NCBI RefSeq assembly: GCF_003334305.1
Contig: NZ_QOWS01000017.1
Length of the DNA: 64,000 bases
Source of the DNA: Escherichia coli
Lineage (GTDB): Bacteria; Pseudomonadota; Gammaproteobacteria; Enterobacterales; Enterobacteriaceae
Direction: 5' to 3' (one strand)
Below, piece after piece: positions 1 through 18,959 of the stretch. The notes beneath the pieces are model-generated. The model saw nothing but the letters and a program-made list of their open reading frames with translations, did no database searches and was not told the DNA's origin. The translations under genes and the position numbers were made by a program. How positions within the stretch are numbered: the stretch's first letter is position 1; each line of letters opens with the position of its first letter.

Positions 1-52
1 AGTTAATGCAACCGGCACGGAATGCAGTCATCTGTCACAGGGAGGAAAGCAA

Positions 53-373: not shown

Positions 374-387
374 AGGAGAACAACACC

Positions 388-2721: not shown

Positions 2722-2728
2722 CCCACCT

Positions 2729-2754
2729 GACCGGCATCTGCCGGTCTTTTTTTA
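2729..2754 (+). terminator. rho-independent terminator after primase gene
   Basis: GACCGGC-atct-GCCGGTC hairpin followed by T7 run, 8 bp after the stop codon. Confidence 0.65.
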
Positions 2755-2770
2755 TCCCTGAATTCCCCGA

Positions 2771-3070: not shown

Positions 3071-3184
3071 ATTTTTAATTGTGCGAAAAACAAGCGACAC
3101 ACGCAGTGTGTATAGATATGTGTATAGTTATATTTTTTGAATATTATAATGTATTACAAATCAATGTGTTAGCTTGTAATATTC

Positions 3185-3203
3185 ACTCCTATTATCGGCA
3201 CCA
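3185..3203 (+). other. att core copy (tRNA-Thr 3'-end-like, ACTCCTATTATCGGCACCA)
   Basis: 19-nt string matching the T-arm-to-CCA end of thrW as I recall it; no full tRNA upstream; second copy at 15262-15279. Confidence 0.6.
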
Positions 3204-3808
3204 TCAAGAAAATCAATAACTTAGCTTAACTTCTCTAAGAAATTGTATCTTCTGTTATCACTTACAAACGCCTATACGTTGTTATGGGCTTTGGTAGTGT
3301 AACACGTATGGGCGAGTAGTTCCCAGGCTCAACCTCGTAACAAGTTCCTTTGAAGCTGGAAGACGTGCCACCGTCTCTAAACCTTCTACCAAAACTCTTA
3401 GCAAGATGTTCCACACCTGGCGCGGTGTCCAATGATGCTACACGTCGTGAGACGTTGCAGAGGATAAACAGGCTAAATGATGGGAAGAGTTTTAAGTGCA
3501 ATAGTGGATTAAAGCCCACCTCTTCAAAACCTAACTTGATCGGGAAAGAATCAAGCTCTAGCACGGTTTCGTCCACCGGAGTACAACGGGTGCCTGATAA
3601 GAGAAGAACTGCTAAGACTTCATAGCTTTTGTGAAAAAGCCCTTTTTAGTGGATACGCCTACGGCGCTTATTTTTTGGTATAACCATCAAAGGCGCTTTA
3701 TGGCTCCTATTGTCTTGAAAATGTATCTTTACTTGTATTGTGTTTTATGCGTAGTCTCCCTGTGTAGTATGTAACTTGTTAATTTTCATATGAATACAGA
3801 GGCACACG

Positions 3809-3967
3809 ATGAAAAACATTGCAGCTATCAAACGGAATAACCGCAAGATTCACGCTCGTAAGTTCCTGTCTACGCCAGAAGGAAAAGCCTGGCTAGAGCG
3901 TAAACAGAGAGAAAACGAAGAAAGAAAACTCCTTAGTGAGTTGAAATGGCTTAGAGAGGATTTCTGA
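3809..3967 (+). CDS. small basic protein (52 aa), hypothetical
   Basis: ATG with AGAGG-like RBS; Lys/Arg-rich; below the size cut-off of the ORF track; translated by hand. Confidence 0.3.
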   Translation: MKNIAAIKRNNRKIHARKFLSTPEGKAWLERKQRENEERKLLSELKWLREDF

Positions 3968-4260
3968 AAATCTCCAGAACGCAACAGGACGCATTCTAAC
4001 GCTGTTTTCATTACTCGGTATAGGGATTATAGGTGATGTGTGTTTAATGCGTCTGTGAGCTTGTTTTGTGCCTTATTTTGCATTTTCATAATGCAGGAGA
4101 GAACACGGAAAGCCTTAAAATTAATTATTGGGGTATTTAAGGCTATTTTTAGGTTATTTAAGGGTATTAAACTTGATTTAATTGATTGAAATATAAACAG
4201 ATAATTATGTATCTTATTGATTTATAAGGTTATTTTTAAATAAAGGTAAATAAAAAATAA

Positions 4261-4300
4261 ATAGCCATAAATAGCTATAAATACATCTAAATACCTATAT
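4261..4300. repeat. four tandem 10-bp A-rich units (ATAGCCATAA / ATAGCTATAA / ATACATCTAA / ATACCTATAT)
   Basis: Read directly; 10-bp period equals the helical repeat, suggesting bent DNA or a phased binding site. Confidence 0.6.
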
Positions 4301-4713
4301 CCCTTCCCTTATGGCTAGATTGCGAGAAGTGCTTAACGCGATTTTCAGCGCCCCCCGATCTGGAAAATCCAGAATCCCCAAATATCAGCAAGGAATTTTC
4401 TTGCGTAATCAACATCGTTTTTACCTATTAAATCATTACACAGAAAGCCTTTCTGTAATGTCTCTCACTAAACTTTCACTAAACACGAGAATGATCGGTT
4501 TTATGTCGGATCAGATGCTAGAAATAGCACCACGTCTCACAAGGGCTGTAAGCGATGAAACCAGTGTTTATGCGGGTGCAGGTCAAAATATAGGCCAAAA
4601 TACATTTAACATAATAAACGTAATATGCACTAAGGAACACATAGAACGCCTTGAGTTGATGTATCAGGGGAAAAGTGGTGGATTTTTTACGTAGGAGCAC
4701 GAGAGGGCTTCTA

Positions 4714-4741
4714 TTGACTTTTGTATGCTATGAAATATAAT
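4714..4741 (+). promoter_or_regulatory. candidate sigma70 promoter (TTGACT-16-TATAAT)
   Basis: Consensus-like hexamers with 16-bp spacer; no convincing ORF downstream, so it may drive a non-coding transcript through the repeat region. Confidence 0.35.
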
Positions 4742-5088
4742 AGAAGGTTTTTTTATGTTGATAGTGATTGCACATTAAAGATTGAAAGCAAATTTAAACA
4801 TAAATTTTCAACACGTGAAAGAGAACTTGTTCGACAAATGATAAAACGTTTATTGAGCAACAATTTTGCAGTGATGCGCTATATGCCGAATTACACAAGG
4901 CTTTGCGAAAGTGATGTAAAAGTGAAGAAAGTAAGAATTGCAACTTTAAGCTACTTTTCATTGAATTTTTTAGTATGGAATTACACAGGAATAAGTTAGG
5001 GATATTCTATGATTTACACAGGGAATATAGGGGGATTATGGCACACACATAGAAAGACATTACACAAAGTGCTATGTGACAAATGGAT

Positions 5089-5300
5089 GTAACGAGAGGT
5101 TACATTCAGCTATCTGAAATGCTCTCTGTAAGAAAGTTGGTAGTAACGATATGTTACATAGACTAATTATTGAATGTAACGATATTACACATCGGTAGTA
5201 ACGATACGTTACATCGACTAATTATTGAATGTAACGATATTACACATCGGTAGTAACGATACGTTACATCGACAGATGATTGGATGTAACGAAAGGTTAC
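5089..5300. repeat. array of seven 15-bp palindromic sites GTAACGA(t/a)A(t/c)GTTAC (iteron/operator/centromere-like)
   Basis: Sites start at 5089, 5143, 5176, 5198, 5231, 5253 and 5286; spacings 54/33/22/33/22/33 bp are all near multiples of 11 bp; includes a 56-bp unit repeated in tandem. Confidence 0.8.
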
Positions 5301-6398
5301 ACAATAAGACTATATTATTTATAATACTAAATAAAACTATATTAGATTATTAATTAGATCATAATAATATTCTTTATATCTATATATATGATCTTTTGCC
5401 TTCCGGCGTTAGCTTCACTCCCTGGCAAGCAGCCTTACTCCGCTACCTTTCGGGCTACGTTGGCTGGCCCGTTCCGCTCACACCGAAAGCAAAGCGTTAC
5501 TTTCTTCGTGTAACTATCGTGGCGGTAACGCCCACGAAGAAATACTATTGCGCTGTGCGCAGAAGAGTAATCACCTAACCAATCATAGATTGCTTATGTG
5601 TTAACTCTCTCTACCTCTTAATTCCACTTCCTACATTTAATAACTCTGTTATTCTCTGTAGTTGTGTAATTACTCGAAGAGAGAGCGGCTAAAGCTCAAT
5701 TACACTCTGCTTTCCTCGTGTAAGTTCACTAAGCCTCAATACAATTTCACTTCCTACATTCTGTAGTCGTGTAATTGTTTTCGGTGGAAAAGCCAGAGGC
5801 GACACCGAAAGAGAATTCTGATCTTATTAATCTTATCTATCTTAGTTAATCTTCTTACTTTATCTACTTTATTATTAATAATAGCTTTATAAGCTCTGTG
5901 TAGCTCTCTGACGCAAGAAACAGCATTCAGGAAGGGAATCACCTTAGAAAAGGTGTTCTTTGCGTCATAATGTGTTTTATGAAGGATTCAGAGGTGTTTC
6001 ATAACAGGAATGTATAGAGGATATTTTAATTAATTAAAAATAAGGGGTCTAAATGCTTCTCTAACAACATTAAGCAGGGTAGGGAATGGAAACGCATTGC
6101 CTACATATAATAAGCTCACTACAGGGCTTTACAGAGCGTTTTATAAAGTGACTCTCTGTTTTATATTTACCATTACCTTTTCATATACCTAACAAATACA
6201 AAATAAGCCCCTTCAATAAGCCTCTGGCGAGCGAAACAGCCATTAGATAAGGGAATGTATTGCTTTTATCAAAATCTCGTCAGAATGCGATTGAGAGTGT
6301 TTTAGCGGATAATGAAGAATAGCACTACATAGAAGAGCACGAATTGTTAAGCAAAATCATAACATACTGAAAAAGATCAGTTTTTTTGTGAAAAGGTA

Positions 6399-6427
6399 TT
6401 GACAAACGTCTCTTTCTGTGCAATAAT
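6399..6427 (+). promoter_or_regulatory. candidate sigma70 promoter (TTGACA-17-AATAAT) for the cargo operon
   Basis: Consensus -35 and near-consensus -10; about 125 nt upstream of the first RBS-preceded ORF, with a hairpin-rich leader. Confidence 0.5.
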
Positions 6428-6554
6428 AGGTATTAGAGGGGACAGGAATAGATTCTTATCCTCTAAATAATTAAACCAATGCACCGCACTTTGAAGCCCA
6501 AGAGGCTTGCAAGGTGTTTTTTCTTTTAACCAAATCGAATAAGGAGGCTAATTA

Positions 6555-6731
6555 ATGAAATATTTCACTCCACAGGATGTAGTAGAAGCCTGGAAACGTG
6601 GTGAGATCAACCGCTTTAAAGTAAGGATGTATAGAAACACCGCTCGCCGTTGTGGTTATCCAGAGCGTGAAAAATGTTTTGACGATGCACTGAAAATTAT
6701 TGATGAACTGCGTAAAGCTGAGAAAGAATAA
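6555..6731 (+). CDS. hypothetical small protein (58 aa)
   Basis: AAGGAGG RBS 6 nt upstream of ATG; first gene after the promoter; translated by hand. Confidence 0.5.
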   Translation: MKYFTPQDVVEAWKRGEINRFKVRMYRNTARRCGYPEREKCFDDALKIIDELRKAEKE

Positions 6732-6753
6732 TAGACAAGAGAAGGAGAAAACT

Positions 6754-6921
6754 ATGAGCGAAACTAAGAAACCAATTCCGCGCACTTACCTTCACGTTGA
6801 CCCTGAAATCTTCAAGGTTTTATTTGCTGAAGCCAAGAAAAGGCAAATTATGGTCAGTGATTTGATGTTAGAAATCATTACTGAAGCAGCAGAGAACATC
6901 AAACAAAAAAAGGGTAAGTGA
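6754..6921 (+). CDS. ribbon-helix-helix-like DNA-binding protein (55 aa)
   Basis: GAAGGAG RBS; N-terminal beta-strand-like segment (RTYLHV) followed by two short helices, an Arc/CopG-type pattern; inferred from sequence pattern only. Confidence 0.5.
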   Translation: MSETKKPIPRTYLHVDPEIFKVLFAEAKKRQIMVSDLMLEIITEAAENIKQKKGK

Positions 6922-6974
6922 TCCTCATTCACTTTAGTAGCGCATTAAGCGTGATTTATAAGGAGATGATTCTA

Positions 6975-7718
6975 ATGTCTAAAATTAAATTGATTCGTGA
7001 AAAATACCAGTATGTTGATAAACAAACAGGAGAAATTAAAGACCGAACTTTGAATATACCGCATTACTTTTGTGAGATTGAATTTATCTACTCCTCAAGT
7101 GTTGATGGTGGAAAAGTTAAGTTTAGTGCAGAAATGCAAAAATTATATTGCTATGTTTCAGATTGGGAGAAATCAGGGGGGATATGTTTTGAAACACAAA
7201 CGAAGTTAAGTAAAGTTTGTGGCTGTAGCCGTAAGACAGTTAATGAACTGATTGGTCTTATGATTAAAATCGGTCTTTTAGAAGAGGTCGGAGAACGAAT
7301 TCCAAAACGTCCTTTAAAATTACGTGCGCTACCTCTCACAGATGCACATATTACTCCCCCAGGAGAATCATCACTCTCTGATCTTTCTGAGGCAGAAGAA
7401 GCACAGGAACAACCTAAAGGCCATAAACAGCCTTCTTTTGATGTTCTTGATGATTGGGATGCGCCTTTACCGTGGGAGACGGAAGAAACACCTGTTTCAT
7501 CAAGTGAAAAGGTAGCTAATGATAATGAGGAGGATGTATTAGAGAATTTTGCCTCTCTTATCATCCAGGAGAAACACACAAGAACAGGAGGAGCATCATT
7601 TATTGAGTTTGCAAATTCACTAGCTTATAGATACGGGCTAAAACGACCAAATGGTATTGAGGCATATTTTTCTAAGAATTACCCAAATGTATATGATGAA
7701 TTTGATATTCCCTTTTAA
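6975..7718 (+). CDS. winged-helix DNA-binding protein with acidic linker (247 aa), possible replication initiator or regulator
   Basis: AAGGAG RBS; helix-turn-helix-like segment LSKVCGCSRKTVNELIGLMIKIGLLEE; Asp/Glu-rich middle; stop overlaps the next RBS. Confidence 0.55.
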   Translation: MSKIKLIREKYQYVDKQTGEIKDRTLNIPHYFCEIEFIYSSSVDGGKVKFSAEMQKLYCYVSDWEKSGGICFETQTKLSKVCGCSRKTVNELIGLMIKIGLLEEVGERIPKRPLKLRALPLTDAHITPPGESSLSDLSEAEEAQEQPKGHKQPSFDVLDDWDAPLPWETEETPVSSSEKVANDNEEDVLENFASLIIQEKHTRTGGASFIEFANSLAYRYGLKRPNGIEAYFSKNYPNVYDEFDIPF

Positions 7719-7748
7719 TAAGGAGGACTATGATTCAATATTTAGTAA

Positions 7749-8009
7749 AAAAATCAAGTAGACAGAATTCAGTGTAATGACACAGGAAAACGCATCTACG
7801 AAACACTTGCTTACCTCTATAAAGGAAAGCCAACACCGCTAAAATATAGCGATGTGTTACATCGAGCAGGGTGCTCTGAAGCTGGTTTAAAATTCTGGCT
7901 GAAACAGCTATCAAATTTCGGTGTTATTGAAATGAAAGAGCTGTCTTTTTCTACATTCAATCTCAAAAGATTAGATAAAGAAATAGAATTCATCTATTCC
8001 ACTCTCTAA
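7749..8009 (+). CDS. second winged-helix-like ORF lacking a canonical start (frameshift/slippage or pseudogene candidate)
   Basis: Open frame encoding ...YSDVLHRAGCSEAGLKFWLKQLSNFGVIEM...; an AGGAGG-ATG at 7730 opens a 15-codon ORF in another frame that crosses an A7 run (7747-7753) directly before this frame opens. Confidence 0.3.
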   Translation, partial: KNQVDRIQCNDTGKRIYETLAYLYKGKPTPLKYSDVLHRAGCSEAGLKFWLKQLSNFGVIEMKELSFSTFNLKRLDKEIEFIYSTL

Positions 8010-8141
8010 AATCTCTCTATGTAATTAAAATATAAAAGGAAAACATTATTATGATAGTAGCTATGTATTGGTTATTGTTCTTTCTCACGTTAGAAGCATA
8101 CTTTGGGGTGTTTTCCTTTAAAAGAAAAGGAAAAGTAAATA

Positions 8142-8558
8142 ATGGCAAAAAGAAAAAACAACGTTGTTAAGAAAATCGGTGATTCAGCTTCTCTTCTAAG
8201 TAAACCTAAACCTAAATCTATTCTAAGACGTAAAGACTTTAAAGAGCTAGTTACGCTCACCAAGCAAAATAGCGCCCCTGGCGAATGGAAAACAGAGATC
8301 ATAGAACATTCTCCCTCTGTGCCTTGTGGAGATGAATTTAACGCCTTGCAAGAAATCTTATCTTCAACACCTGGCGTATTCTGGAAACCTAGAAAAAGAA
8401 AAGAGTATATCGTTGATAGCTCTGATTTACGCAAATACCAGATTTTAGGATTTGAAGATTATAACCACTACGTCGGTTATCTCGCCACCAATGGCCTAAA
8501 TAATTTAGTTCCTGAATTCCAAATTTTAGATAATGCTGATCACTATGGAGACTTTTAA
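8142..8558 (+). CDS. hypothetical protein (138 aa), basic N-terminus
   Basis: ATG preceded by AAAGGAAAAG; no motif recognised. Confidence 0.5.
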   Translation: MAKRKNNVVKKIGDSASLLSKPKPKSILRRKDFKELVTLTKQNSAPGEWKTEIIEHSPSVPCGDEFNALQEILSSTPGVFWKPRKRKEYIVDSSDLRKYQILGFEDYNHYVGYLATNGLNNLVPEFQILDNADHYGDF

Positions 8559-8559
8559 T

Positions 8560-8898
8560 ATGAACAAAAACACGTATGACACAATTTATTCACTAATTAA
8601 TTATTATGAGGATGATTACCTCCTGCCTTTAAACCGCGCTGAACTTGAAGCATACAAAGAAAACACGCCAGGGGCGCTAAATGAGGCGTTTAAACACTGG
8701 GATTTAGCTGTGAATGCCTTTGAGCACCTTTCTAAAAGAGTAGAGATGCTCTGTAAGCGTGAAAACGCATACCTGACAGCCGATCAGATATGGGAGCTAT
8801 CAAACTGGATAGAAGATATTGAATCTGATGTTCGCTATGTAGGGGATGGCCTGGTTGAATTAGCTCAACGCTTAGGCGCTACTATCACAGAAGAATAA
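8560..8898 (+). CDS. hypothetical acidic protein (112 aa)
   Basis: ATG 8560 with GGAG 7 nt upstream, 1 nt after the previous stop; an in-frame upstream ATG at 8533 would overlap the previous gene. Confidence 0.5.
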   Translation: MNKNTYDTIYSLINYYEDDYLLPLNRAELEAYKENTPGALNEAFKHWDLAVNAFEHLSKRVEMLCKRENAYLTADQIWELSNWIEDIESDVRYVGDGLVELAQRLGATITEE

Positions 8899-8927
8899 AA
8901 AAAGCAACAAAAAAGTTGTAAAATATC

Positions 8928-8956
8928 TTGACATTCCATCTATTGTATGTTAATAT
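8928..8956 (+). promoter_or_regulatory. candidate sigma70 promoter (TTGACA-17-TAATAT)
   Basis: Consensus -35; located in a 350-bp gap inside the operon. Confidence 0.45.
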
Positions 8957-9093
8957 AATTATATAGGGGTGATTATTTTTCCTTTATTGGTTCGATATTA
9001 AAAATTCTTCCTGTCATTAAAGGGGAGTAAAATCTCCGCTCCCCGCTTCTCCTCCTTAAGTAAATACTGTGTCATTATACCTCTTTTTTCCTT

Positions 9094-9125
9094 TGTTATG
9101 CATACATCTTGGAGTATGCATAACA
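9094..9125. promoter_or_regulatory. 12-bp perfect inverted repeat TGTTATGCATAC-N8-GTATGCATAACA (operator or RNA hairpin)
   Basis: Read directly; lies between the 8928 promoter and the next gene. Confidence 0.6.
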
Positions 9126-9165
9126 TAGGGTAATTACATAGGTATGAGTTAATAAAAGGCGGCTC

Positions 9166-9189
9166 TAAATGCTGCCTTTTATTTTGCCC
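9166..9189 (+). terminator. weak intrinsic terminator or attenuator
   Basis: AGGCGGC-tctaaat-GCTGCCT stem with one G-U pair, followed by TTTTATTTT. Confidence 0.4.
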
Positions 9190-9247
9190 GTTATGCAACT
9201 TAAAAGTTGTATTTCTTACTTTAAAAAAGGTAACAAGGTTTATATAA

Positions 9248-9460
9248 ATGTTGTTTTTAAACGATAAAGAGCAAATCATCAAGTATAAAGATGAAATGCT
9301 GAAAATTAATCCACAAATTACCGAAATGGTAGCTAAATACGCTGGGTGTTCTGTCGAGGAAGTAGAAAGATGTGTTGAAAAATATTTTTCTCCTTCTACT
9401 CCGTCTACACCTTCCCTTAATGAATTAATCAAATTAAAAGCTAAGGAGATTACTAAATGA
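9248..9460 (+). CDS. hypothetical protein (70 aa)
   Basis: ATG with AAGG upstream; stop overlaps the start of the next gene (ATGA). Confidence 0.5.
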   Translation: MLFLNDKEQIIKYKDEMLKINPQITEMVAKYAGCSVEEVERCVEKYFSPSTPSTPSLNELIKLKAKEITK

Positions 9461-9819
9461 TTATTGATTTAGACACTCTGTTTCCAGTTAGAAAGACTTT
9501 CACAGATATTGTAAGTTATTGTACTGATCCGTTTGCCTCTGTAGAAAGCAAGGTTTTTGCTTCTCTTCCTGCTGATGTTGAGTGCGGCGACTTGATCACC
9601 AGTACTGGCGCTAAATATGAATCAGGAGATGATATCTATGTTGTTATGAGTGAATTTGTAACGGCTGGAGAAAACAAGCCTGTAGATGTGCTACGTAGTA
9701 ATGCTGGTCTTGTCTGCATCAAAGCTGATGCGCTGAATGCTGTAAGTGAAGCAGCAAAAACAGCATTAATTAAAAAAGGCTTCCAGCTTGAAGGGTTCCA
9801 TTCTGTTTTCACTTCTTAA
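9457..9819 (+). CDS. hypothetical protein (120 aa)
   Basis: AAGGAG RBS; translationally coupled to the upstream ORF. Confidence 0.55.
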   Translation: MIIDLDTLFPVRKTFTDIVSYCTDPFASVESKVFASLPADVECGDLITSTGAKYESGDDIYVVMSEFVTAGENKPVDVLRSNAGLVCIKADALNAVSEAAKTALIKKGFQLEGFHSVFTS

Positions 9820-9837
9820 TAAAAGGAATAATAATAA

Positions 9838-10869
9838 ATGATTCTAGGTAATGATTACGTTGATTTAGCTCCGCTTTTCCAGGCACACAGCACTAGAAAC
9901 TTTCTGCTCTCTACCCTCGACTTCACTGATCCGGTGGGCGTTAGTTCTCATAAAGTAGCTGTTTCTCAGCTTGTCGAAAGCAACGAATCTCTGTTCAACA
10001 AAGAAACCTCTCGTTTCTCTTCTGAACACAATGTTACTAAGCGTGAACAAGGTAAAGAATGGCTGATTGAAATCCCGTATTTTCTTCGTGAAGATGTGAT
10101 CCGTCCTTCTGATGTTCAAGGCAAGCGTAAGCCTGGCACTGATTTTCAGGAAACACTCACTGATATCTATGCGGAATATATCGCTAAACACCACGTAGCG
10201 TATCAGCGTACAAAAGAGAGCGTGTTGGCTGCATCTCTGTTTAGCGGTAAAACTTACACGCCTAAAACTGATGATGTTCTTATCGAGTGGGGCAAGCTGT
10301 TTAACGTGGCACCTATGAAAGCCACCTTGAACGCTTCCAGCACTGACACAATGACCGTTTTCAAGCAATTTGACCAGCTTGCTACGGATATGATTGCTAA
10401 GGCACAAAACCAGGCTGCAACCATTGAGCGTGTTGTTGTGTTCTGTAAACCTGCGGCATTCAACGCTATTCGTTACAGTGTTGGTATGGTCAATGCTTTC
10501 CAATATGCAAGCCCTGTAGACGATGCCAACGTGGTGTTTAATGTGCGTTCCCTGCTACCAGGTGTAACTACTTTCACCATTCCAGGAACTAACATTGACC
10601 TGATCAAAGTGACTGATCCGCTACACCTTGCACATATGGCTTCTGATGCGGTTGCTGTGCCTAAATTCGCTAAGGGGGCAGGTGTTTACCAATCTATCTA
10701 TGGGGCAGCTTCCAGCACCTTTGAACTGATCAATGCCGCTCCTGCTGAGGTGTATAGCTATAGCTATGAATCTTCTTCTCGTGGTGATGCTGTTAACGTT
10801 GTTACAGAGAATAGCCAGATGGTGGTAAACCACGGCGTTGGTTTCTCCGTTCAAATCACTGTTAAATAA
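9838..10869 (+). CDS. hypothetical protein (343 aa), no motif recognised
   Basis: Long ORF in AT-rich DNA with AAGGA RBS; followed by a strong terminator. Confidence 0.65.
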   Translation: MILGNDYVDLAPLFQAHSTRNFLLSTLDFTDPVGVSSHKVAVSQLVESNESLFNKETSRFSSEHNVTKREQGKEWLIEIPYFLREDVIRPSDVQGKRKPGTDFQETLTDIYAEYIAKHHVAYQRTKESVLAASLFSGKTYTPKTDDVLIEWGKLFNVAPMKATLNASSTDTMTVFKQFDQLATDMIAKAQNQAATIERVVVFCKPAAFNAIRYSVGMVNAFQYASPVDDANVVFNVRSLLPGVTTFTIPGTNIDLIKVTDPLHLAHMASDAVAVPKFAKGAGVYQSIYGAASSTFELINAAPAEVYSYSYESSSRGDAVNVVTENSQMVVNHGVGFSVQITVK

Positions 10870-10887
10870 TATTTTAACGTGTAATAG

Positions 10888-10925
10888 AGGCGTGGCGTGA
10901 ATAACACGCTTCGCCTTTTTTTATT
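10888..10925 (+). terminator. rho-independent terminator
   Basis: Nested hairpin AGGCG-tg-GCGTG-aataa-CACGC-tt-CGCCT followed by a T-rich run. Confidence 0.65.
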
Positions 10926-10955
10926 TATTTTTAAATTTTGAGAGGTGATTAAAAT

Positions 10956-11159
10956 ATGGAAGTGATTCTGAAATCAAAAAATGGTGTACACGTTTATTTA
11001 GATGCTAATGATTCAAGAGGCTTGTTAAATCTGAAATATCTATGTTCTCTCTTGGATGTTCCATATGAAGGCGTAAAAGCCCGAATGTTCAGATTAAACG
11101 AGAGTATTGATCAAGCTCTACACCATTTCTTAAGCAAAGAAGGTGGTAAAAATGATTAA
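10956..11159 (+). CDS. hypothetical protein (67 aa)
   Basis: GAGAGGTGA RBS; 15 bp upstream of the 612-aa gene. Confidence 0.45.
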   Translation: MEVILKSKNGVHVYLDANDSRGLLNLKYLCSLLDVPYEGVKARMFRLNESIDQALHHFLSKEGGKND

Positions 11160-11173
11160 TAAGGGGATTTTAA

Positions 11174-13012
11174 ATGTTAGAAATTAACACTTCTAAAATT
11201 AAGAACACAGTAACATTTAGTGTAGATAAAGACAGCTTGAAAAAAGCGAAAGACTCTATTACAGGCTTAAAGGAATTCACAGAAAACATCAAGCCAGCTA
11301 AATTAAGGTTTGATAGTGTCACTAAAGGCTATAAGAAAGCACAAAGCGAAGTAGACAAGATTGCTCAACAGAAAGCTAAAACAGAAAAGCAGAATCAAAG
11401 AGCACAAGCTGCCGCAGCAAGAGCACAGGCAAGGCAACAGACACAAATAGCAGCACGTAAAGAGAAAGCAGAATTAAAGCTCCTCGATGTGTCAAGCTCT
11501 ATCAGTGCAATGCACCGCCTCTCTGTAGCGGAACAATACAAAGCTATTGCACAGGCTAGAGAGATAGCAAAACAATATGAGCAAGGGGCTATCTCGCTTG
11601 CACGTATGAATAGTCAGATGAAACGCCTACAACAGCAACAACGTAAGATTAATGGCAACAGAAAAGCTCAATTAGCCCCCGTTAAGGGAGGAGGATCAGG
11701 GAATTCCGCCACGATGGGTGCTCTGTTATTTGGAGGCGCTACAGCGGCTGCTGGCGTGATGGCTGTTAGTAAAGCGTCGGAGTTTGTTAGTAACAGTTTC
11801 GCTAACGCAGAGACACAAGGTGAGCTAATTCAACGTGCAAGGCTTGGCGGTGTAGACGTTAACCAGATGTACAACATTACAGAATGGGCCTATAGAAACG
11901 GCGTTGACTCTATGATGGGTGATCAAGGGGCTAGGAAATACCTGGATCAGATGAAAGATGTTAGGGAACGTGCCGCAAAATCCTATAGTGAAGCTGAATA
12001 TGTAGTCGATAAAAAAACTGGTAAAGGCGGCGAATGGAAAGGCGGTGATAACGCTATTAATGAACTTCTAAACATCGGTGTTATTAACAAGAGCGACCTT
12101 AAAAAATTTGCTGATAATCCAGCCGGATTAATTTCTAAGGCTGTTAATGGAATGATGAAAAAAGGGTTTTCAGACTCCCAAATTGGACAACGTTTAGAAG
12201 ACCTGGGTGATGATTTGATGCTTACATCAAAATATTGGCAACGTTCCGTTAAAGATGTACAAACAAGCATCGAGCAGCAAAAAGCCTCTGGAAAATGGCT
12301 AACAGAAACACAGCAAGATTCTATTGTTAAATTCAGAGAACTAAACAGACAGCTTTCACAGCTTTCTGATGCAAGACAAGTAGCATTTGTAGACGGCTTT
12401 ATGAAATCTCTCGATCCAAAAGTAACGGAAGAGTTTATGAAAAACCTTTCTAATCTCACTCCGTATTTTACAAAGCTGGGAGAAGCTACAGGAAGTCTCT
12501 TTGAAGCTATTATGAAGATTGTAAACTGGTTTAATCGTAATGATGATAAGACAGATGCTATTCAGAAAAATTTAGGTGATGCACCGCCATTAAGCAATGA
12601 AGGAATGAAACAGAATCTTTCTAATCTCGTTCCTGATCAATATAAAGGCGCTGGCACCGGAACAACTAAGCCAGATAACAGCAATTCCCTGTTTAACACT
12701 ATTAAGGGATTGCTTTTCGATGATAAGTCTTCTTCTGTGTCAGATGTAAAAATGTCAGTCAGCGAAGCACCGATAACCAATCTCAAACAGGGCGCTTTAA
12801 ATAATCTTGCAATGACAACTCCGGCTTATAATTTATCTCCTGTGTTTAATCTGAATCCTACATTTGAAGTGGTAACAGAGGTTCCTCTTACTATTAATTC
12901 TGACACATCAAGATTAAGCGATTATGTGGATTTTACAGCGAGATCAAGTCGGGATAGCTTCTTGAAATCATTAACATTAACCAGCTTATCAGGACAATCT
13001 AACGGCGGGTAA
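11174..13012 (+). CDS. large coiled-coil protein with central Gly-rich hydrophobic segment (612 aa); tape-measure-like or membrane-interacting, function unknown
   Basis: AAGGGG RBS; N-terminal approx. 150 aa rich in Q/A/R/K/E; segment GGGSGNSATMGALLFGGATAAAGVMAV; no NTP-binding or catalytic motif seen. Confidence 0.7.
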   Translation: MLEINTSKIKNTVTFSVDKDSLKKAKDSITGLKEFTENIKPAKLRFDSVTKGYKKAQSEVDKIAQQKAKTEKQNQRAQAAAARAQARQQTQIAARKEKAELKLLDVSSSISAMHRLSVAEQYKAIAQAREIAKQYEQGAISLARMNSQMKRLQQQQRKINGNRKAQLAPVKGGGSGNSATMGALLFGGATAAAGVMAVSKASEFVSNSFANAETQGELIQRARLGGVDVNQMYNITEWAYRNGVDSMMGDQGARKYLDQMKDVRERAAKSYSEAEYVVDKKTGKGGEWKGGDNAINELLNIGVINKSDLKKFADNPAGLISKAVNGMMKKGFSDSQIGQRLEDLGDDLMLTSKYWQRSVKDVQTSIEQQKASGKWLTETQQDSIVKFRELNRQLSQLSDARQVAFVDGFMKSLDPKVTEEFMKNLSNLTPYFTKLGEATGSLFEAIMKIVNWFNRNDDKTDAIQKNLGDAPPLSNEGMKQNLSNLVPDQYKGAGTGTTKPDNSNSLFNTIKGLLFDDKSSSVSDVKMSVSEAPITNLKQGALNNLAMTTPAYNLSPVFNLNPTFEVVTEVPLTINSDTSRLSDYVDFTARSSRDSFLKSLTLTSLSGQSNGG

Positions 13013-13046
13013 TTCCCGCCATAACATTACAAGGAAAATTATTATT

Positions 13047-13760
13047 ATGGCGACCGCCGGGATTTTAACCATACGTGCAGCAAATACTCCAGAACAACAC
13101 GTTCAGGCTGTTTACAAAGCAGAACAAGATATAAATTCTACAAAAAACGAAAATAGCAAAGCTAATAAAACAAAAGGAGAGAACGGATTTGCTATTGTTA
13201 CCAGTGGCTTGGCATCTTCTGGCAATGACGTTTATGAAAATTATATGGCCCTGGCCTTTGACAGTGTAGACGATGTGAACGTGAGACGTTCGGCAGATGT
13301 CACAAGCTACCCCGTAGAAAATGGTGCTACTGTGTCTGATCACGTTCAAATTAAAAACAATAAGTTTTCTCTTAAAGGAAGGATCACTGAAACACCGATT
13401 AAAAGCGATCCTGGCTTGTTAAAGAGTGCAGGGGTGAACGGGAACAGAAGATCATTAGCCATAGACTACTTGAATCAGATTATGGACAGTAGACAGCCTT
13501 TTCTTCTTGTTACAGAAAATAAAACTTTTGAGAACGTTGTTTTAACAGGCATCGAATACACAGAAGAGGCAAGCGAATCCCTGGTATTTGATCTTAGCTT
13601 TGAGCAGATCAGATTAGTTTCTTATGGCACTGTATCCACTATTGCACTTAAAACACAACCATCTAAGAACATCGGGGCGAATATGAAAAAACGTGTTAAC
13701 ACTGAAAAATCAAGTAGTGAAGGTGAAGACACTATTACTCCTGCCTTTAAGCAGAAATAG
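13047..13760 (+). CDS. hypothetical protein (237 aa)
   Basis: AAGGA RBS; last gene of the + strand operon, convergent with the integrase. Confidence 0.6.
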   Translation: MATAGILTIRAANTPEQHVQAVYKAEQDINSTKNENSKANKTKGENGFAIVTSGLASSGNDVYENYMALAFDSVDDVNVRRSADVTSYPVENGATVSDHVQIKNNKFSLKGRITETPIKSDPGLLKSAGVNGNRRSLAIDYLNQIMDSRQPFLLVTENKTFENVVLTGIEYTEEASESLVFDLSFEQIRLVSYGTVSTIALKTQPSKNIGANMKKRVNTEKSSSEGEDTITPAFKQK

Positions 13761-13803
13761 CCGTAAACGCCTCTAAAACGCTCTGTAACGATGTAATTAT
13801 AAA

Positions 13804-13840
13804 AGAGGCTGCCAATCTATGTTGAAGCCTCTTTATTGTG
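13804..13840. terminator. bidirectional terminator between convergent operon and integrase
   Basis: AGAGGCT-N15-AGCCTCT hairpin flanked by T-rich runs on both strands. Confidence 0.5.
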
Positions 13841-13841
13841 T

Positions 13842-15176
13842 TTATGGCGTTGTTTTACGCCTTAAATTTGATTTTTTATTGATTGATAAGCCTTTCTCTA
13901 TTTCAGGGTAGCGTAGAAGCTCAATATAGTTTTTAAGCTCTACTGGAGAAGCTGCATTCTTGCTATATGTGCGGAATGTCTCTGTATTGCCGCGTGTATG
14001 GCCCAGGAGAAGGGCGATCCTGTCTTCTGGAATTTGATTTCGATCAAGAAGCTGTGCTACTCCGTGTCTCAGAGAATGAAACACTTTCCTTTCTGTTCCC
14101 TTTTCCCCTAAAGCCTTTCGTTTAGCTCTTGTAAATCTCTGCGTGTGCCACGTGGAACGTTTACCATCAGCACGCTCTGTAATGCTGGCGTGATAGAACA
14201 AAAAGCCATTATGAGGCTTTTCACGCAGCGACAACACCAACGGAGTGATAAGGCTATGTACAGGCACAACACGTGCCGCAGCTTTCGTTTTTCCCTGTGT
14301 GATTTCAAAACACAGCACACCTTCGATCTCTTTCACATCGTCTATTGTGAGACTTGCTATCTCATTGATCCGCATACCTGTATATAAACCGATAAGACAC
14401 AAAGCCATCATTTCTTTGTTTTCTGCTGAATTACCGGAAAATACTTGCAACACCTGCAATAGCTCTTTGTTAGAAAATGCCTCGTAGCTCTCTCTACTTT
14501 GTGCCACATCAAGCCTATGCCCTCGCCAGGGGGAGAGCGCCCTTTCTGGCGCATCGTGGTAACGTGATGAAGCTAACTCCCATAGCTGGGCTATTGGGCT
14601 GATATAATTTGCAATTGATTGTTGTGAAAGAGTTTTTTGCATGTGTTCTATCCAGCCTGTAACAGTGGTGCGGCTCACATCTTGCAATGCAATATCAGGC
14701 TTTTTACGGTAGGAGAGAAACATCTCTACCGCTTTTCTTGCCTTAGCTAAAGTGGCTGGCTTCTTCTTCGTGCTGTTAATTGTCAGGTAGATTTCAAGAA
14801 TTTTAAGCAATGACGGACACGAAGACGCTGTATCTTGCATTCTGGTAGCTGTTTTGGCGTATTTAGCCTTACTGCGTAACAGCTCCAGCGTGTTCTCTAT
14901 TGTGCTGTTTACAGGGGCGACACTCTCCCGTAGGCAATGGTATTCATCTGCAATCTGATCACGCTTTCTACGTGCAACACGAAGATTATTTGTGTGTAGA
15001 CTTCTGACAAACGTCCTTTTTCCTTCAAAAAAGGGCTGCATATACACAGGCAGCGTGATCCTTAAATAGTAGTTACCGTAAGAATCACAGATTAAGTATT
15101 GGTTAGGCTTGTATCTCATAAAATCTCCGGCTAAAGTGTCGGAGCGTTTGTAATGTGAAAATTGATTGTAACGCAT
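13842..15176 (-). CDS. tyrosine-type site-specific integrase
   Basis: Box I GMRINE, box II HSLRHG, LLGH, and a C-terminal tyrosine in TFRTYS; ATG at 15176 (a TTG at 15206 gives the 454-aa track ORF); sits directly inside the right att copy. Confidence 0.85.
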   Translation of the reverse strand: MRYNQFSHYKRSDTLAGDFMRYKPNQYLICDSYGNYYLRITLPVYMQPFFEGKRTFVRSLHTNNLRVARRKRDQIADEYHCLRESVAPVNSTIENTLELLRSKAKYAKTATRMQDTASSCPSLLKILEIYLTINSTKKKPATLAKARKAVEMFLSYRKKPDIALQDVSRTTVTGWIEHMQKTLSQQSIANYISPIAQLWELASSRYHDAPERALSPWRGHRLDVAQSRESYEAFSNKELLQVLQVFSGNSAENKEMMALCLIGLYTGMRINEIASLTIDDVKEIEGVLCFEITQGKTKAAARVVPVHSLITPLVLSLREKPHNGFLFYHASITERADGKRSTWHTQRFTRAKRKALGEKGTERKVFHSLRHGVAQLLDRNQIPEDRIALLLGHTRGNTETFRTYSKNAASPVELKNYIELLRYPEIEKGLSINKKSNLRRKTTP

Positions 15177-15218
15177 AGAAAATGATAATTTTTCTATAAG
15201 ATTCAATCAATTAGTAAT

Positions 15219-15279
15219 GGTCGTAGGTGATGGCATTAACACGAGATTAATCGAGTGTTTTACTCCTATTATCGCACCA
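15219..15279 (+). pseudogene. tRNA-Thr 3'-half remnant (ptwF-like) containing the right att core copy
   Basis: GGTCGTAGGT, then a 33-nt unrelated insert, then ACTCCTATTATCG-CACCA; not a foldable tRNA. Confidence 0.55.
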
Positions 15280-15405
15280 TTAAAATCAAAGAGTTACCCC
15301 ATATTTAAATACACCACGTTTCCTCCTGTGCCGCATTTGTGCCATTGTAACCTTGGCAATTCATCAAAATACTGTTCTGACATCAGGCAGTGCAGGTGCA
15401 GCTAT

Positions 15406-15816
15406 TTAAACCAATTGCTGCCGCCATTCTTTGACGTAGTCAATCAGGGCGCGGAGCTTTGGTGCAATATTGCGACGCTGTGGGAAATACAGATAGAAGC
15501 CCGGAAATTGTGGAAGAAAGTCATCAAGCAGCGATACAAGCTTACCGCTTTCAATATATGGCCTGAAAGTTTCCTGAGTGGCAATTGTTATTCCTCCGCC
15601 GGCAAGAGCCAGCCTCAACATCAGACGCAGATCATTAGTCGTAATCTGCGGTTCAATCGCAAGGTCGAAAGTTCTCCCGTTTTCTTCAAATGGCCAGCGA
15701 TAAGGCGCAACCTCCGGGGACTGACGCCAGCCGATACACTTATGGGTATTTCCCCCGGAGGCGAGAAAGCGCTCTCCACGCCCGGCCGCAAGGATCAGGA
15801 CGACGGGGGCAGGCAT
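15406..15816 (-). pseudogene. yagP: LysR-family regulator fragment (C-terminal substrate-binding domain only)
   Basis: 136-aa reading frame from MPAPVV... matching the yagP remnant as I recall it; no N-terminal HTH domain present; overlaps the paoD 3' end. Confidence 0.6.
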
Positions 15817-16751
15817 GAATCCTCCTCCTGATGGAGACGTACAGAGGCGACTTCTGCCAGCACGGAGAGTGCCAGAGTATGCGCATCCCGGGCTTTGGGG
15901 AATATCCCGACGGGTGCCCGGATTTGCGTTGTTTCCTCCCTGGACCATCCCAGCTCGTGGAGCTTTTGCAGACGTAACGTGTGGGTTCGATAGCTGCCCA
16001 ATGCGCCGAGATAAAAGGGTTTTGCTTCTCGCGCGGCCTGCAACACTGGCAGCTCCCGGTTGAGATCATGGCACAGCAAAATGACCGCCGTATCGGTATC
16101 GATCTGAGCGCTGGCTGAGGCCGGAAAAAGATCGAAGATATGGCTGTCATAGCCTGTGGCTGCTGCAAGACTCGCAGTTGCCTGCGCCTCAAGAGAACGT
16201 CCGTAAATCATCAGCCTGACGCATGGCCTGAACCCCACCTCAAAGCCATTGAGATTCCAGCCCGTTCGGGTTTGCGTGGGCAGGCACACCAGCGATTGTG
16301 CTTGCGGATCGTAGCGCAGCCCCGCCGGTTTTCTCTGTTCCAGACGGTTCAGCACGGCGAGCAGAGGCTGTGCCGAGCGTAGTTTATGGAGCGTCAGCGT
16401 GATCCCACCGCCGCAGGGCAGAACGATGTCAAACCACGGCGAACCTTCGCCATAGCGAATTTCGCGATCGCGGCCTGAGCCCATCATCTCCAGCGCTTCA
16501 AAAGCGGCAGCGGCCTCCACGCAGCCGCCAGAGACAAAACCGCAGTAACGACCATCTTCGCGAACCACCATCTGCGCCCCGAGCGGGCGCGCTGCGCCGC
16601 CGCGTATCTCCACCAGCGTCACCAGCACCGCTCCTTTACCGGACATTAGCGCCTCTACGGCGAAGCGCAGAATGGTCCGGTGGTCATCGGTGAGAAACGC
16701 CTGCTCTGGCTTATGCCAGTGTTCGTCTTTATCAAAAAGCGGGTATGACAT
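15795..16751 (-). CDS. paoD: XdhC-like molybdenum cofactor insertion chaperone
   Basis: 318 aa; position directly downstream of paoC in the paoABCD operon. Confidence 0.85.
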   Translation of the reverse strand: MSYPLFDKDEHWHKPEQAFLTDDHRTILRFAVEALMSGKGAVLVTLVEIRGGAARPLGAQMVVREDGRYCGFVSGGCVEAAAAFEALEMMGSGRDREIRYGEGSPWFDIVLPCGGGITLTLHKLRSAQPLLAVLNRLEQRKPAGLRYDPQAQSLVCLPTQTRTGWNLNGFEVGFRPCVRLMIYGRSLEAQATASLAAATGYDSHIFDLFPASASAQIDTDTAVILLCHDLNRELPVLQAAREAKPFYLGALGSYRTHTLRLQKLHELGWSREETTQIRAPVGIFPKARDAHTLALSVLAEVASVRLHQEEDSCLPPSS

Positions 16752-16760
16752 TGTTTCTCC

Positions 16761-18959
16761 TTAAACCACATCCGGCAGCTTATCGAGCAGCTTATCCAGA
16801 GTGATGGGATAATCCCGTACCCGAATACCGGTGGCGTTATACACCGCGTTGGCGATAGCCGCGCTCACGCCGCACAGGCCCAGCTCACCGACACCTTTGG
16901 CCTTCATCGGGGAGGATATGGGGTCGGTATCATCCAGGAAAATCACCTCCTGTTTTGGGATATCCGCATGGACCGGCACCTCATACCCCGCCATATCGTG
17001 ATTAACGAAGTAGCCCAAACGGTCATCCACCGCCAGCTCCTCCATCAGTGCCGCGCCCATGCCCATAGTCATTGCGCCAATGACCTGGCTGCGCGCAGTT
17101 TTCGGATTCAGGATGCGTCCTGCAGCACACACAGCGAGCATACGCCGGACCCGAACTTCTCCCGTCGCGCTATGCACGCCGACCTCCACAAAATGCCCGG
17201 CAAAGGTCGACTGCTGGTACTCTTTGCTCAGTGTTCCGAATTCAATGCTCTCTTCCGCTGTCAGTCTGCCGCCTGCGGTGGCTTCATGTAGCGTGGCGCT
17301 TCGGGTACCGTTGGTAATCTTGCCGTCGGCAAACTGCGACTGCTCAGGATCAAACCCGACTGCCGAGGCAATCATTTCGCGAAGCTTCATACAGGCGGCG
17401 TAAACGCCGGAGGTGGAGGTATTCGCGCCCCATTGTCCACCAGAACCCGCAGAAACCGGGAAACTGGAATCGCCGAGGTGAACCGCAACCTGCTCCAGCG
17501 GTACGCCAAGCATTTCCGCTGCCGTCTGGGCCAGAATGGTGTAGCTGCCGGTGCCAATGTCGGTCATGTCCGTTTCTACGGTAACGGTGCCGTTTTGTTC
17601 GAGGTGAACCCGAGCACCCGATTTTTCCAGCAGATTATTGCGAAAGCCCGCCGCAACACCGTGGCCGACTAGCCACTCCCCGTCGCGCACCTGTCCGGGT
17701 GTGGCGTTGCGCTGCTTCCAGCCAAATTTATCCGCTCCGGTGCGCAAGCACTCGATAAGCTGACGGCGAGAGAAGCAGCGCGTCGGGTCGGCGGGGTCAA
17801 CCTGAGTGTCATTCAGGATGCGAAACTCGACGGGATCGATGCCCGCTTTTTCCGCCAGTTCGTCGATCGCGATTTCGAGCGCCATCAGACCGGGGGCTTC
17901 GCCGGGCGCACGCATGGCGTTCCCTTCCGGCAAATCAAGCGTGGCGAGCCGCAGGCCGGTATGACGATTCGCCCCGGCGTAGAGTAATTCGCTTTGCTGT
18001 ACCGCCGTTTCCGGCGTGCCGCCGGGCAGGTTTCCAGACCAGCTTTCATGTGAGATAGCGGTGATTTTCCCGCTCTGGTCGGCACCGATACGCAAGTGCT
18101 GAAGGGTGGCGGGGCGGTGCGTGGTGTTATTGGGAATAGAGGGGCGGGGGAGCATCACTTTAACCGGACGTTTCACCGCTCGGGCGGCGAGGGCCGCCAG
18201 CAGCGCATCGCTTCTCAGGAACAGCTTGCCGCCAAACCCTCCGCCGATATACGGGGAGATAATACGCACATTCTCCACGGGAACTTTCAGCGTTTTTGCC
18301 AGATCGGTGCGGCACCAGTCAATCATCTGATTTGAGGTCCAGAGGGTAAGCTTATTTCCATCCCAGACGGCCATCGAGGCATGCGGCTCCATCGCCATAT
18401 GGCTCTGGTCCGGGGTCGTGTAGGTAGCATCAATCTTCACCGCAGCGGAGGTGAAAGCCCCGTCAAAGTCACCGACGTTTTTGTCGGGCGTGTCTTCCGG
18501 CGGCTGATTGACGGCCTGTTTTTCGTCCGCCAGGGGGTAAGCTCCTTTATTACGGCGATAGTGTGCCTGCACCAGCGAGGCCGCCGCTCGCGCCTGTTCG
18601 AAGGTCTCGGCCACTACCAGCGCAATGGCCTGATGATAGTGCTCAATAGTGGGGCCGCCTAACAGCCTGGCGGTGTTTTTGTCGCCTTTGCCGAGTGCCC
18701 CGGCGTTACTGGCGGTAATGACAGCCAGTACGCCCGGCGCTTTTTGCGCGGCGTCCGTATCAAGGGCGGTGAGGCGTCCTTTGGCAATGGCGGAACCGAC
18801 GATATAGCCATAGGCGGCGTTGGGGGCCTCTTCATGCCATTCGTAGGCGTAGCGTGCCGTGCCGGTAGTTTTCAGCGGTCCGTCGATGCGGTCATGGGGA
18901 CGACCGACAACCTTCAGCTGATCGATCGGGTTTTCCCCTGCGGGTTTATCAAATTTCAT
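16761..18959 (-). CDS. paoC: periplasmic aldehyde oxidoreductase, molybdopterin subunit
   Basis: 732 aa; operon context. Confidence 0.9.

What the first reader, a model, noticed from the sequence alone, without database searches (positions are those of the whole stretch)
15219..15816. tRNA remnant with a 33-nt insertion and a LysR fragment lacking its HTH mark the island-chromosome junction
GGTCGTAGGT and ACTCCTATTATCGCACCA look like the two ends of the thrW 3' half separated by 33 unrelated nucleotides. The adjacent yagP reading frame contains only the LysR substrate-binding domain. Both look like scars of repeated integration or excision at this site.
Basis: partly seen in the sequence, partly recalled or inferred. 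Interest (0 to 1): 0.3.

Follow-up and report, generated by a model that had tools for sequence, protein, structure and literature searches.

The report
Island end and chimeric yagP pseudogene
This is the right-hand end of a 12-kb phage-like element inserted in the E. coli threonine tRNA gene thrW, lying next to a gene wreck left by an unrelated 6-kb deletion; both are ordinary kinds of feature, with two small new details.

Summary
GGTCGTAGGT (15219-15228) and ACTCCTATTATCGCACCA (15262-15279) are thrW positions 45-54 and 58-76, with one G missing, split by 33 nt. The yagP frame lacks the LysR HTH.

The "scar" reading is mostly wrong. The 10-mer, the 33 nt and the 19-mer all travel with a ~12-kb integrase-bearing element (window 3204-15261). 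They form its attP-derived arm and core, so this is its attR. The same block sits beside the same integrase in about 442 of 5,426 E. coli genomes and in at least five right-flank contexts.

The "33 nt" is a 30-nt insert in the T-loop part of the block, plus TCG>TTT. A homologous insert occurs in Kluyvera and Citrobacter elements whose integrases are only 46-51% identical, so it is an old attP module. The 10-mer and a weaker anticodon-loop match are vestiges of a longer thrW identity block.

yagP is a chimera made by a 6.13-kb deletion at a 5-bp microhomology. It joins 26 codons of a lost fifth pao-operon gene (MobA-like) to LysR residues 188-299. The deletion is in 2,684 genomes, including one checked with an unoccupied thrW, so it does not depend on this island.

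Known kind, low interest.

The parts
3185..3203 (+). Exact thrW 3' 19-mer ACTCCTATTATCGGCACCA. It is the junction between the P4-like satellite on the left and the 12-kb element E2, so it is the displaced fragment of the P4-like element and the left att site of E2.
   Evidence: In strain A33 the same E2 left arm (tcaagaaaatcaataac...) follows an intact thrW directly.
3204..15261 (.). Body of the integrative phage-like element E2, about 12.06 kb. It carries a replication-initiator-like gene (6975-7718), a major head protein (9838-10869), a tape-measure-like protein (11174-13012), a tail/baseplate-like protein (13047-13760) and an integrase.
   Evidence: PHROG hits, PGAP annotation of the identical strain A7, and boundaries taken from comparison with A33 and VTB96935v.
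13842..15119 (-). Tyrosine integrase of E2, 425 aa, reading inward from the att site.
   Evidence: phrog_1 integrase, E 1.5e-33. R250, K277, H348, R351, H374 and Y385 are invariant among relatives. It is only 24% identical to K-12 IntF over 162 aa.
15125..15144 (+). Inverted repeat CTCCGGCTAAAGTGTCGGAG that overlaps the integrase ribosome-binding site.
   Evidence: By eye, a stem in the same place appears with different sequences in relatives; this was not tested formally.
15182..15210 (-). Promoter-like site TTGATT-17-TATCAT facing the integrase gene.
   Evidence: Consensus scan only; no functional evidence.
15210..15228 (+). Vestigial thrW-like stretch carried by the element. ATTAGTAATG matches thrW 31-40 at 9 of 10 positions. 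After a 5-nt gap comes GTCGTAGGT (thrW 46-54).
   Evidence: The Kluyvera and Citrobacter relatives keep CATTCGGTTGCGAAGGTCG... and TGCGAAGGTCGTAG in the same place.
15229..15261 (+). The '33 nt': a 30-nt insert in the T-loop part of the thrW-like block plus TCG>TTT. It contains the dyad ACAC-N12-GTGT.
   Evidence: Unique in the window. Invariant in 20 E. coli copies. Homologous to the inserts in L052 and L049, at 22/30 and 20/30 by my count from the alignment.
15262..15279 (+). Displaced thrW 3' end, positions 58-76 with one G of G70/G71 missing. This is the core of E2's attR, and the chromosome starts at 15280.
   Evidence: Most E. coli hits to this region start at about 15262. The single-G form occurs in 672 records.
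15406..15816 (-). yagP chimeric ORF, 136 aa. 15406-15744 encodes LysR residues 188-299. 15740-15744 is the TTATG microhomology at the deletion junction. 15745-15816 holds the start and first ~24 codons of a lost MobA-like (NTP_transf_3) gene that overlapped the paoD stop.
15795..16751 (-). paoD, the last intact gene of the pao operon. Its stop overlaps the yagP start.

Best explanation
Region 15210-15279 is the attR junction of a ~12-kb thrW-specific integrative phage-like element, E2 (window 3204-15261).

Shown: the 10-mer, the 33 nt and the 19-mer next to the integrase all belong to the element. They are its attP arm plus core.

Inferred: the integrase exchanges strands inside the 19-bp block that is identical to thrW 58-76. 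The element's copy of that block rebuilds thrW at the left end. The old chromosomal 3' end is left at the right end, abutting the yagP flank.

Inferred: the 10-mer and the weaker ATTAGTAATG upstream are vestiges of an ancestral longer identity block that ran from the anticodon loop to CCA. This stretch never becomes part of the functional tRNA, so it is free to decay.

Shown to be old and conserved, with function inferred: the 30-nt insert that splits the block. Its position is just upstream of the promoter-like site for int and beside the crossover region. My best guess is that it is a protein-binding module, either a core-proximal recombination site or a control site for int expression.

The single missing G is a widespread polymorphism of the displaced, unselected fragment.

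Separately, yagP is a dead chimera. A 6.13-kb deletion between 5-bp microhomologies removed the 5' part of a 299-aa LysR gene, five annotated features after it, and the rest of an already truncated fifth pao gene. This fused 26 MobA-like codons in frame to LysR residues 188-299. The deletion does not depend on this island.
For: Layout in the source genome: the window is identical to strain A7. There the order is proA, intact thrW, a P4-like satellite, the 19-mer, E2, attR, yagP.

The block is element-borne:
- In A33, E2 follows an intact thrW directly. Its right end carries the same 10-mer + 33 nt + 19-mer (with GG) but abuts the vat island.
- Twenty IMG/VR copies with 98-99% identical integrases carry the same block, with at least five different right flanks.
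- About 442 of 5,426 genomes carry the arm, and in 311 it abuts the yagP flank.

The crossover lies right of thrW position 57: attL keeps the bacterial TCG while attR keeps TTT.

The insert is old: homologous inserts sit at the same T-loop position in Kluyvera georgiana (integrase 46% identical) and in a Citrobacter (51%), with thrW-like vestiges upstream of them.

The longer block is ancestral: other relatives have 36 contiguous nt of thrW, and K-12 CP4-6 has 49.

An empty site exists in AQ15.

yagP:
- Deletion end points and the TTATG microhomology.
- The undeleted gene order in O145 and O157 strains.
- Pfam results.
- An NTP_transf_3 gene follows paoD directly in Leclercia and Sodalis.
- YagP residues 1-26 match its N-terminus at 24/26. 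Residues 24-135 are 96% identical to the LysR protein.
- The junction is present in 2,684 genomes.
Against: - No excision or integration was observed. The crossover position is inferred from sequence only.
- The function of the 30-nt insert is a guess. Two E. coli copies lack it, and one of them (VTB96935v) is 99.85% identical to the window's element and has an intact integrase. A 65%-identical Raoultella relative also lacks it. It may therefore be dispensable.
- How the TCG sequence is restored exactly in the copies without the insert is unexplained.
- The promoter and hairpin calls are consensus or energy predictions only.
- Whether the missing G arose once or repeatedly is unresolved.
Confidence: 0.85

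Rival explanations
1. The split tRNA remnant and the LysR fragment are chromosomal scars left by repeated, imprecise integration and excision at thrW in this lineage.
For: thrW is a heavily used site, and tandem islands are present here. The displaced fragment carries a 1-nt deletion. Small lesions recur at the same spot: VTB96935v lacks GGC there.
Against: The 10-mer + 33 nt moves with the element into other contexts and other genera. AQ15, with an unoccupied thrW, has the same yagP truncation. The deletion ends lie inside LysR and after paoD, at a TTATG microhomology and not at an att core.
Confidence: 0.05
2. The 30-33 nt is the leftover arm of a second thrW element that once lay in tandem. 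A deletion fused it to E2's old attR, and the composite then became E2's working attP by excising from the outer core. On this view it is a fossil with no function of its own.
For: Tandem arrays at thrW are common. Other thrW islands have right arms that end ...TGTGTTTTG(C/T)TCCTATTATCGG, sharing GTGTTTT with the end of the 33 nt. The upstream thrW vestige looks like a buried older att fragment.
Against: Apart from GTGTTTT, the 33 nt does not match those arms. No source sequence was found in the window or in the phage collection. The 19 nt nearest the core are conserved at 15-16 of 19 positions (my count) across integrases only 46-51% identical, while by eye the neighbouring arm cannot be aligned. 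That pattern suggests constraint.
Confidence: 0.2
3. The 10-mer is a chance match. Only the 18-19-mer is truly derived from thrW.
For: Ten bases is short, and 1-mismatch copies occur elsewhere in the window at about the chance rate.
Against: There is only one exact copy in the window, and it is in the correct order and orientation 33 nt from the core. Two genomes join it to TCGACTCC... without interruption. Relatives keep up to about 25 nt of thrW-like sequence at the same place.
Confidence: 0.01

Closest known systems
CP4-6 cryptic prophage right end in E. coli K-12 (intF, displaced thrW fragment, yagP). From memory, the fragment is annotated as the pseudo-tRNA ptwF.
   Same: The chromosomal site is the same. 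An integrase gene reads inward from a displaced thrW 3' fragment, followed by the identical flank and the same yagP pseudogene and paoD.
   Different: K-12 has an uninterrupted 49-nt thrW block, positions 28-76. IntF is only 24% identical over 162 aa. The DNA to the left of 15262 does not match K-12. The window's element is a different, 12-kb element.
tDNA genomic islands in general, as catalogued by Islander (PMC4383910)
   Same: Integration by a tyrosine integrase splits the tRNA gene. The island's own sequence restores the gene. The regenerated gene and its displaced fragment mark the island's two ends.
   Different: Here the island-borne tRNA-like block is interrupted by a conserved 30-nt insert, so only the last 19 nt are a usable identity block. 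The 5'-ward vestige is decaying.
P4-like satellite integrated at the same tRNA (the left neighbour in this window)
   Same: It uses the same 19-bp thrW block, ACTCCTATTATCGGCACCA, as its att core.
   Different: Its integrase lies at the thrW-proximal end, and its arm shows no thrW-like vestige or insert.
Five-gene pao operons of Leclercia and Sodalis (paoABCD plus an NTP_transf_3 gene)
   Same: The first 26 residues of YagP match the N-terminus of the fifth gene at 24/26. The start overlaps the paoD stop in the same way.
   Different: E. coli keeps only about 26 codons. In O145/O157-type strains these end at a stop codon. In the window they are fused to a LysR tail.
KplE1 intS, an integrase gene controlled from within its att region (PMC2951348, title and abstract only)
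   Same: The integrase gene abuts the att site, so its control region lies inside the recombination region.
   Different: This is an analogy only. No regulator binding or promoter activity was tested for E2.

Membership tests
tRNA-gene-targeting integrative element (attR junction) | Encodes a tyrosine recombinase with the catalytic R-K-H-R-H-Y residues next to the att site | tested here: met
   phrog_1 integrase, E 1.5e-33. R250, K277, H348, R351, H374 and Y385 are invariant in the alignment. The gene starts 99 nt from the thrW-like block.
tRNA-gene-targeting integrative element (attR junction) | The target tRNA gene is regenerated intact at one end | tested here: met
   thrW is intact in A7. 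In A33 and VTB96935v it is intact and directly followed by the E2 left arm.
tRNA-gene-targeting integrative element (attR junction) | A displaced 3' fragment of the same tRNA forms a direct repeat at the other end | tested here: met
   The 19-mer lies at 3185-3203 and the 18-mer (one G missing) at 15262-15279.
tRNA-gene-targeting integrative element (attR junction) | An empty site exists in relatives, and the element occurs with varying neighbours | tested here: met
   AQ15 has the empty site. At least five right-flank contexts were seen.
tRNA-gene-targeting integrative element (attR junction) | Excision and integration demonstrated | not testable with these tools
   This needs PCR or long reads for the attP and attB junctions.
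CP4-6 prophage of K-12 | IntF-type integrase and CP4-6 DNA to the left of the junction | tested here: not met
   24% identity over 162 aa. K-12-type genomes match only from 15262 rightwards.
Functional tRNA gene | A cloverleaf detectable by ARAGORN or Rfam | tested here: not met
   No tRNA anywhere in the window. No Rfam hit in 1-17000.
LysR-type transcriptional regulator | N-terminal HTH_1 DNA-binding domain | tested here: not met
   Absent from YagP. Present at residues 5-64 of the 299-aa homologue.
LysR-type transcriptional regulator | Complete LysR_substrate domain | tested here: not met
   Only model positions 103-207 of 209 are present.
MobA/MocA-like nucleotidyltransferase (NTP_transf_3) | Full domain of about 190 aa | tested here: not met
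   Only 26 N-terminal residues remain, 24/26 identical to the Leclercia protein. Pfam finds no such domain in YagP.

The most novel reading that the evidence does not exclude
The 30-nt dyad-containing insert (ACAC-N12-GTGT) is a functional cassette placed inside the tRNA-like identity block of attP. It would supply a new core-proximal or regulatory protein-binding site. It would also have moved the usable crossover from the anticodon or T-loop region to the last 19 nt of thrW. It can be gained or lost between near-identical elements by an event templated on thrW. That would be a modular way of remodelling attP that has not, to my knowledge, been described for tRNA-targeting integrases.
Probability: 0.25. 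Interest if true: 0.4.

Novelty: new member of a known kind. Interest (0 to 1): 0.2.

Why it matters
Mostly as a correction. What looks like a chromosomal scar is the working end of a common mobile element, present in about 8% of complete E. coli genomes including O104:H4 strains. A tRNA-like block at an island end can carry old, conserved interruptions, and island-mapping tools that expect one contiguous displaced fragment would place this boundary 33-70 nt off. The comparison narrows the likely crossover to thrW 58-76 without any experiment. It also shows that yagP, which PGAP annotates only as a LysR fragment, starts with the remains of a fifth pao-operon gene that survives in other Enterobacterales. 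That is relevant to how PaoABC obtains its cytosine-dinucleotide cofactor in E. coli.

Tried and rejected
- ARAGORN and Rfam found no tRNA or other RNA family at the remnant. This is expected and not informative.
- I tested whether the integrase is an IntF or CP4-6 relative. It is not: 24% identity over 162 aa.
- I looked for a second copy or a source of the 33 nt in the window and in the phage collection. There is none. Shared words between the two arms are short, at most 10 nt, and I did not interpret them.
- I first took the missing G for a strain-specific mutation or a sequencing error. This was rejected: the single-G form is in 672 records and beside three different left neighbours.
- I tried to show that the N-terminus of YagP is MobA-like by searching solved structures with the 26-aa peptide. 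There was no meaningful hit. Synteny in Leclercia and Sodalis settled the point instead.
- I tried to decide from near relatives whether the insert is ancestral or derived. The result is contradictory: outgroups are mixed, and the insert-less copies are nested among insert-bearing ones. I left this unexplained.
- By eye the insert resembles the IHF consensus only imperfectly, so I make no claim about IHF.

Full report
**What is in the sequence**

The window is identical over 15100-15900 to E. coli strain A7. GGTCGTAGGT lies at 15219-15228, the only exact copy in the window. A unique 33-nt stretch follows at 15229-15261, and then ACTCCTATTATCGCACCA at 15262-15279.

Against an intact thrW (strain AQ15) the two pieces are positions 45-54 and 58-76 of the 76-nt gene. 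TCG (55-57) is missing and one of G70/G71 is deleted. ARAGORN and Rfam find no tRNA.

**Context**

In A7 the order is proA, intact thrW, a P4-like satellite, an exact thrW 19-mer (window 3185-3203), a ~12-kb element I call E2 (window 3204-15261), the split remnant, and then yagP-paoDCBA.

The P4-like satellite carries an integrase, a nuclease with a UvrD-type helicase, psu, delta, sid and a primase. E2 encodes:
- a replication-initiator-like protein;
- a major head protein;
- a tape-measure-like protein;
- a tail/baseplate-like protein;
- a 425-aa tyrosine integrase (13842-15119, minus strand) with the catalytic residues conserved.

The integrase starts 99 nt from the remnant. It is not IntF of K-12 CP4-6, being 24% identical over 162 aa.

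**The split block belongs to the element, not the chromosome**

- In strain A33, E2 follows an intact thrW directly. Its far end carries the same 10-mer + 33 nt + 19-mer (with GG), but the next DNA is the vat island rather than yagP.
- Twenty IMG/VR copies with 98-99% identical integrases all carry the block. At least five different sequences follow CACCA.
- About 442 of 5,426 complete E. coli genomes have this arm. In 311 it abuts the yagP flank, and these include O104:H4 strains.

New elements enter at the intact thrW, so different right-hand neighbours mean independent integrations by an attP that already contained the 10-mer and the 33 nt. This is the attR of E2. It follows the standard logic of tRNA-gene islands, in which the island restores the gene and a displaced fragment marks the far end (PMC4383910).

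**What the 33 nt is**

Aligned with thrW and with relatives, it is a 30-nt insert in the T-loop part of the block plus TCG>TTT.

Two elements in other genera have homologous inserts at the same place. Their integrases are 46% (Kluyvera georgiana, L052) and 51% (a Citrobacter, L049) identical to E2's. By my count, 22/30 and 20/30 positions are shared, with a common dyad ACAC-N12-GTGT.

Upstream of the insert these relatives keep thrW-like sequence back to the anticodon loop: CATTCGGTTGCGAAGGTCG... in L052 and TGCGAAGGTCGTAG in L049. In the window, ATTAGTAATG (15210-15219) matches thrW 31-40 at 9 of 10 positions, with a 5-nt gap before GTCGTAGGT.

Other relatives carry 36 contiguous nt of thrW, and K-12 CP4-6 carries 49. 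I infer an ancestral long identity block of which the 10-mer is a vestige.

attL keeps the bacterial TCG while attR keeps TTT. Strand exchange must therefore lie to the right of position 57, inside the 19-mer. Everything to the left never enters the working tRNA and is free to change.

**What the insert does is not shown**

It lies just upstream of a promoter-like site that faces int (15210-15182), and it lies next to the crossover region. Its core-proximal 19 nt are conserved at 15-16 of 19 positions (my count), while by eye the adjoining arm cannot be aligned between genera. My best guess is a protein-binding module for recombination or for int control.

Evidence against a necessary role:
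- Two E. coli genomes have E2 arms joined to an uninterrupted GGTCGTAGGTTCGACTCC... (FDAARGOS_1300 and VTB96935v).
- VTB's element is 99.85% identical to the window's over 11 kb. It sits in the same context with an intact thrW and an identical integrase protein.
- A 65%-identical Raoultella relative lacks the insert.

How the insert is gained or lost with exact restoration of TCG is unexplained (notebook).

**The missing G**

It is not peculiar to this window. The single-G fragment joined to the yagP flank occurs in 672 records. It is found beside E2, beside a different island in CREC-532, and as part of a full-length 75-nt thrW copy at the right end of yet another island. Most E2 copies have GG.

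Either it is an old polymorphism of the displaced, unselected copy that survives island turnover, which would place crossovers left of G70, or it is recurrent slippage. I could not decide between these. Loss of thrW is tolerated in Salmonella (bioRxiv 10.1101/2024.04.04.588050).

**yagP**

The 136-aa frame (15406-15816, minus strand) matches only the second half of the LysR substrate domain, Pfam model positions 103-207 of 209, and has no HTH.

O145 and O157 strains have a full 299-aa LysR gene next to thrW. It is followed by an SDR oxidoreductase gene, a small ORF, a ykgR fragment, a second LysR gene, a hydrolase gene, an MFS transporter gene and then paoD.

The window lacks 6.13 kb of this stretch (L035 639-6771). 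The junction lies at a TTATG microhomology, window 15740-15744.

The first 26 residues of YagP are not LysR. In Leclercia and Sodalis a 187-188-aa NTP_transf_3 (MobA-like) gene follows paoD with an overlapping start, and YagP 1-26 matches its N-terminus at 24/26. Undeleted E. coli strains keep only a 26-codon stub of this gene. Residues 24-135 are 96% identical to LysR 187-298.

The deletion junction is in 2,684 of 5,426 genomes. One of these, AQ15, has an unoccupied thrW. The deletion is therefore an old chromosomal event at non-att end points, not an integration scar.

**Verdict**

The "scar" interpretation is replaced by two things: the attR of a common thrW element, and an unrelated microhomology deletion. 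Both are known kinds of feature.

The modest new points are the conserved insert inside a tRNA-like att block, its erratic presence among near-identical elements, and the MobA-like head of yagP.

Noticed in passing
window 1-3184 (and A7 record 1008696-1020357, L004/L001): A P4-like satellite lies between thrW and E2. It carries an integrase, an ATP-dependent nuclease with a UvrD-type helicase as cargo, psu, delta, sid and an alpha primase (388-2721). Two ~180-nt direct repeats rich in TGTTCACC/GGTGAACA lie at about 2760-3060. From memory these look like P4 ori/crr iterons.
   Followed up: no
window 3204-6554 and 5139-5292: The first 3.3 kb of E2 has almost no annotated ORFs. It contains a 55-nt tandem repeat of 2.8 copies, upstream of a replication-initiator-like gene (6975-7718). 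This may be an iteron-type origin.
   Followed up: partly
window 15125-15144: The hairpin CTCCGGCTAAAGTGTCGGAG covers the integrase Shine-Dalgarno sequence. The 5' leader folds better than all 200 shuffles (z = -3.8). By eye, relatives in other genera have a stem in the same place with different sequences. This may be translational control of int.
   Followed up: partly
L008 3099-3131; L037 4049-4077: Two of about 444 E2 copies lack the 30-nt insert and have an uninterrupted thrW 45-76 block. In VTB96935v the block also lacks GGC in the acceptor strand. In FDAARGOS_1300 the integrase gene is destroyed by an IS3-family insertion.
   Followed up: partly
L124 2442-2516; L039 2500-2525: The single-G thrW 3' end next to the yagP flank also occurs as a full-length 75-nt thrW copy at the end of another island. 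It also occurs after a different island arm (...GTGTTTTGTTCCTATTATCGCACCA). In all, 672 records carry the single-G form.
   Followed up: partly
loci L042, L051, L033, L034, and L043-L048, L050, L053: Relatives of the integrase have attP-side tRNA-like blocks that are interrupted in the anticodon loop by palindromic inserts of about 40 nt. One example is AGCGCATTCG + insert + CGAAGGTCG... Others sit beside a different tRNA 3' end (...GGTTCGAGTCCGGCCTTCGGCACCA), which from memory I take to be a tRNA-Leu. Interrupted tRNA-like blocks seem to be a trait of the whole family.
   Followed up: no
alignment, integrase residues ~303-351: A 49-residue stretch (HNGFLFYHASITERADGKRSTWHTQRFTRAKRKALGEKGTERKVFHSLR) is invariant between integrases that are otherwise only 48-49% identical. 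This suggests a recombinant, mosaic integrase gene.
   Followed up: no
proteins P0001, P0002, P0005, P0007: Some E. coli assemblies encode a 448-aa PaoD-LysR_substrate fusion protein, in which paoD reads through into the yagP frame.
   Followed up: no
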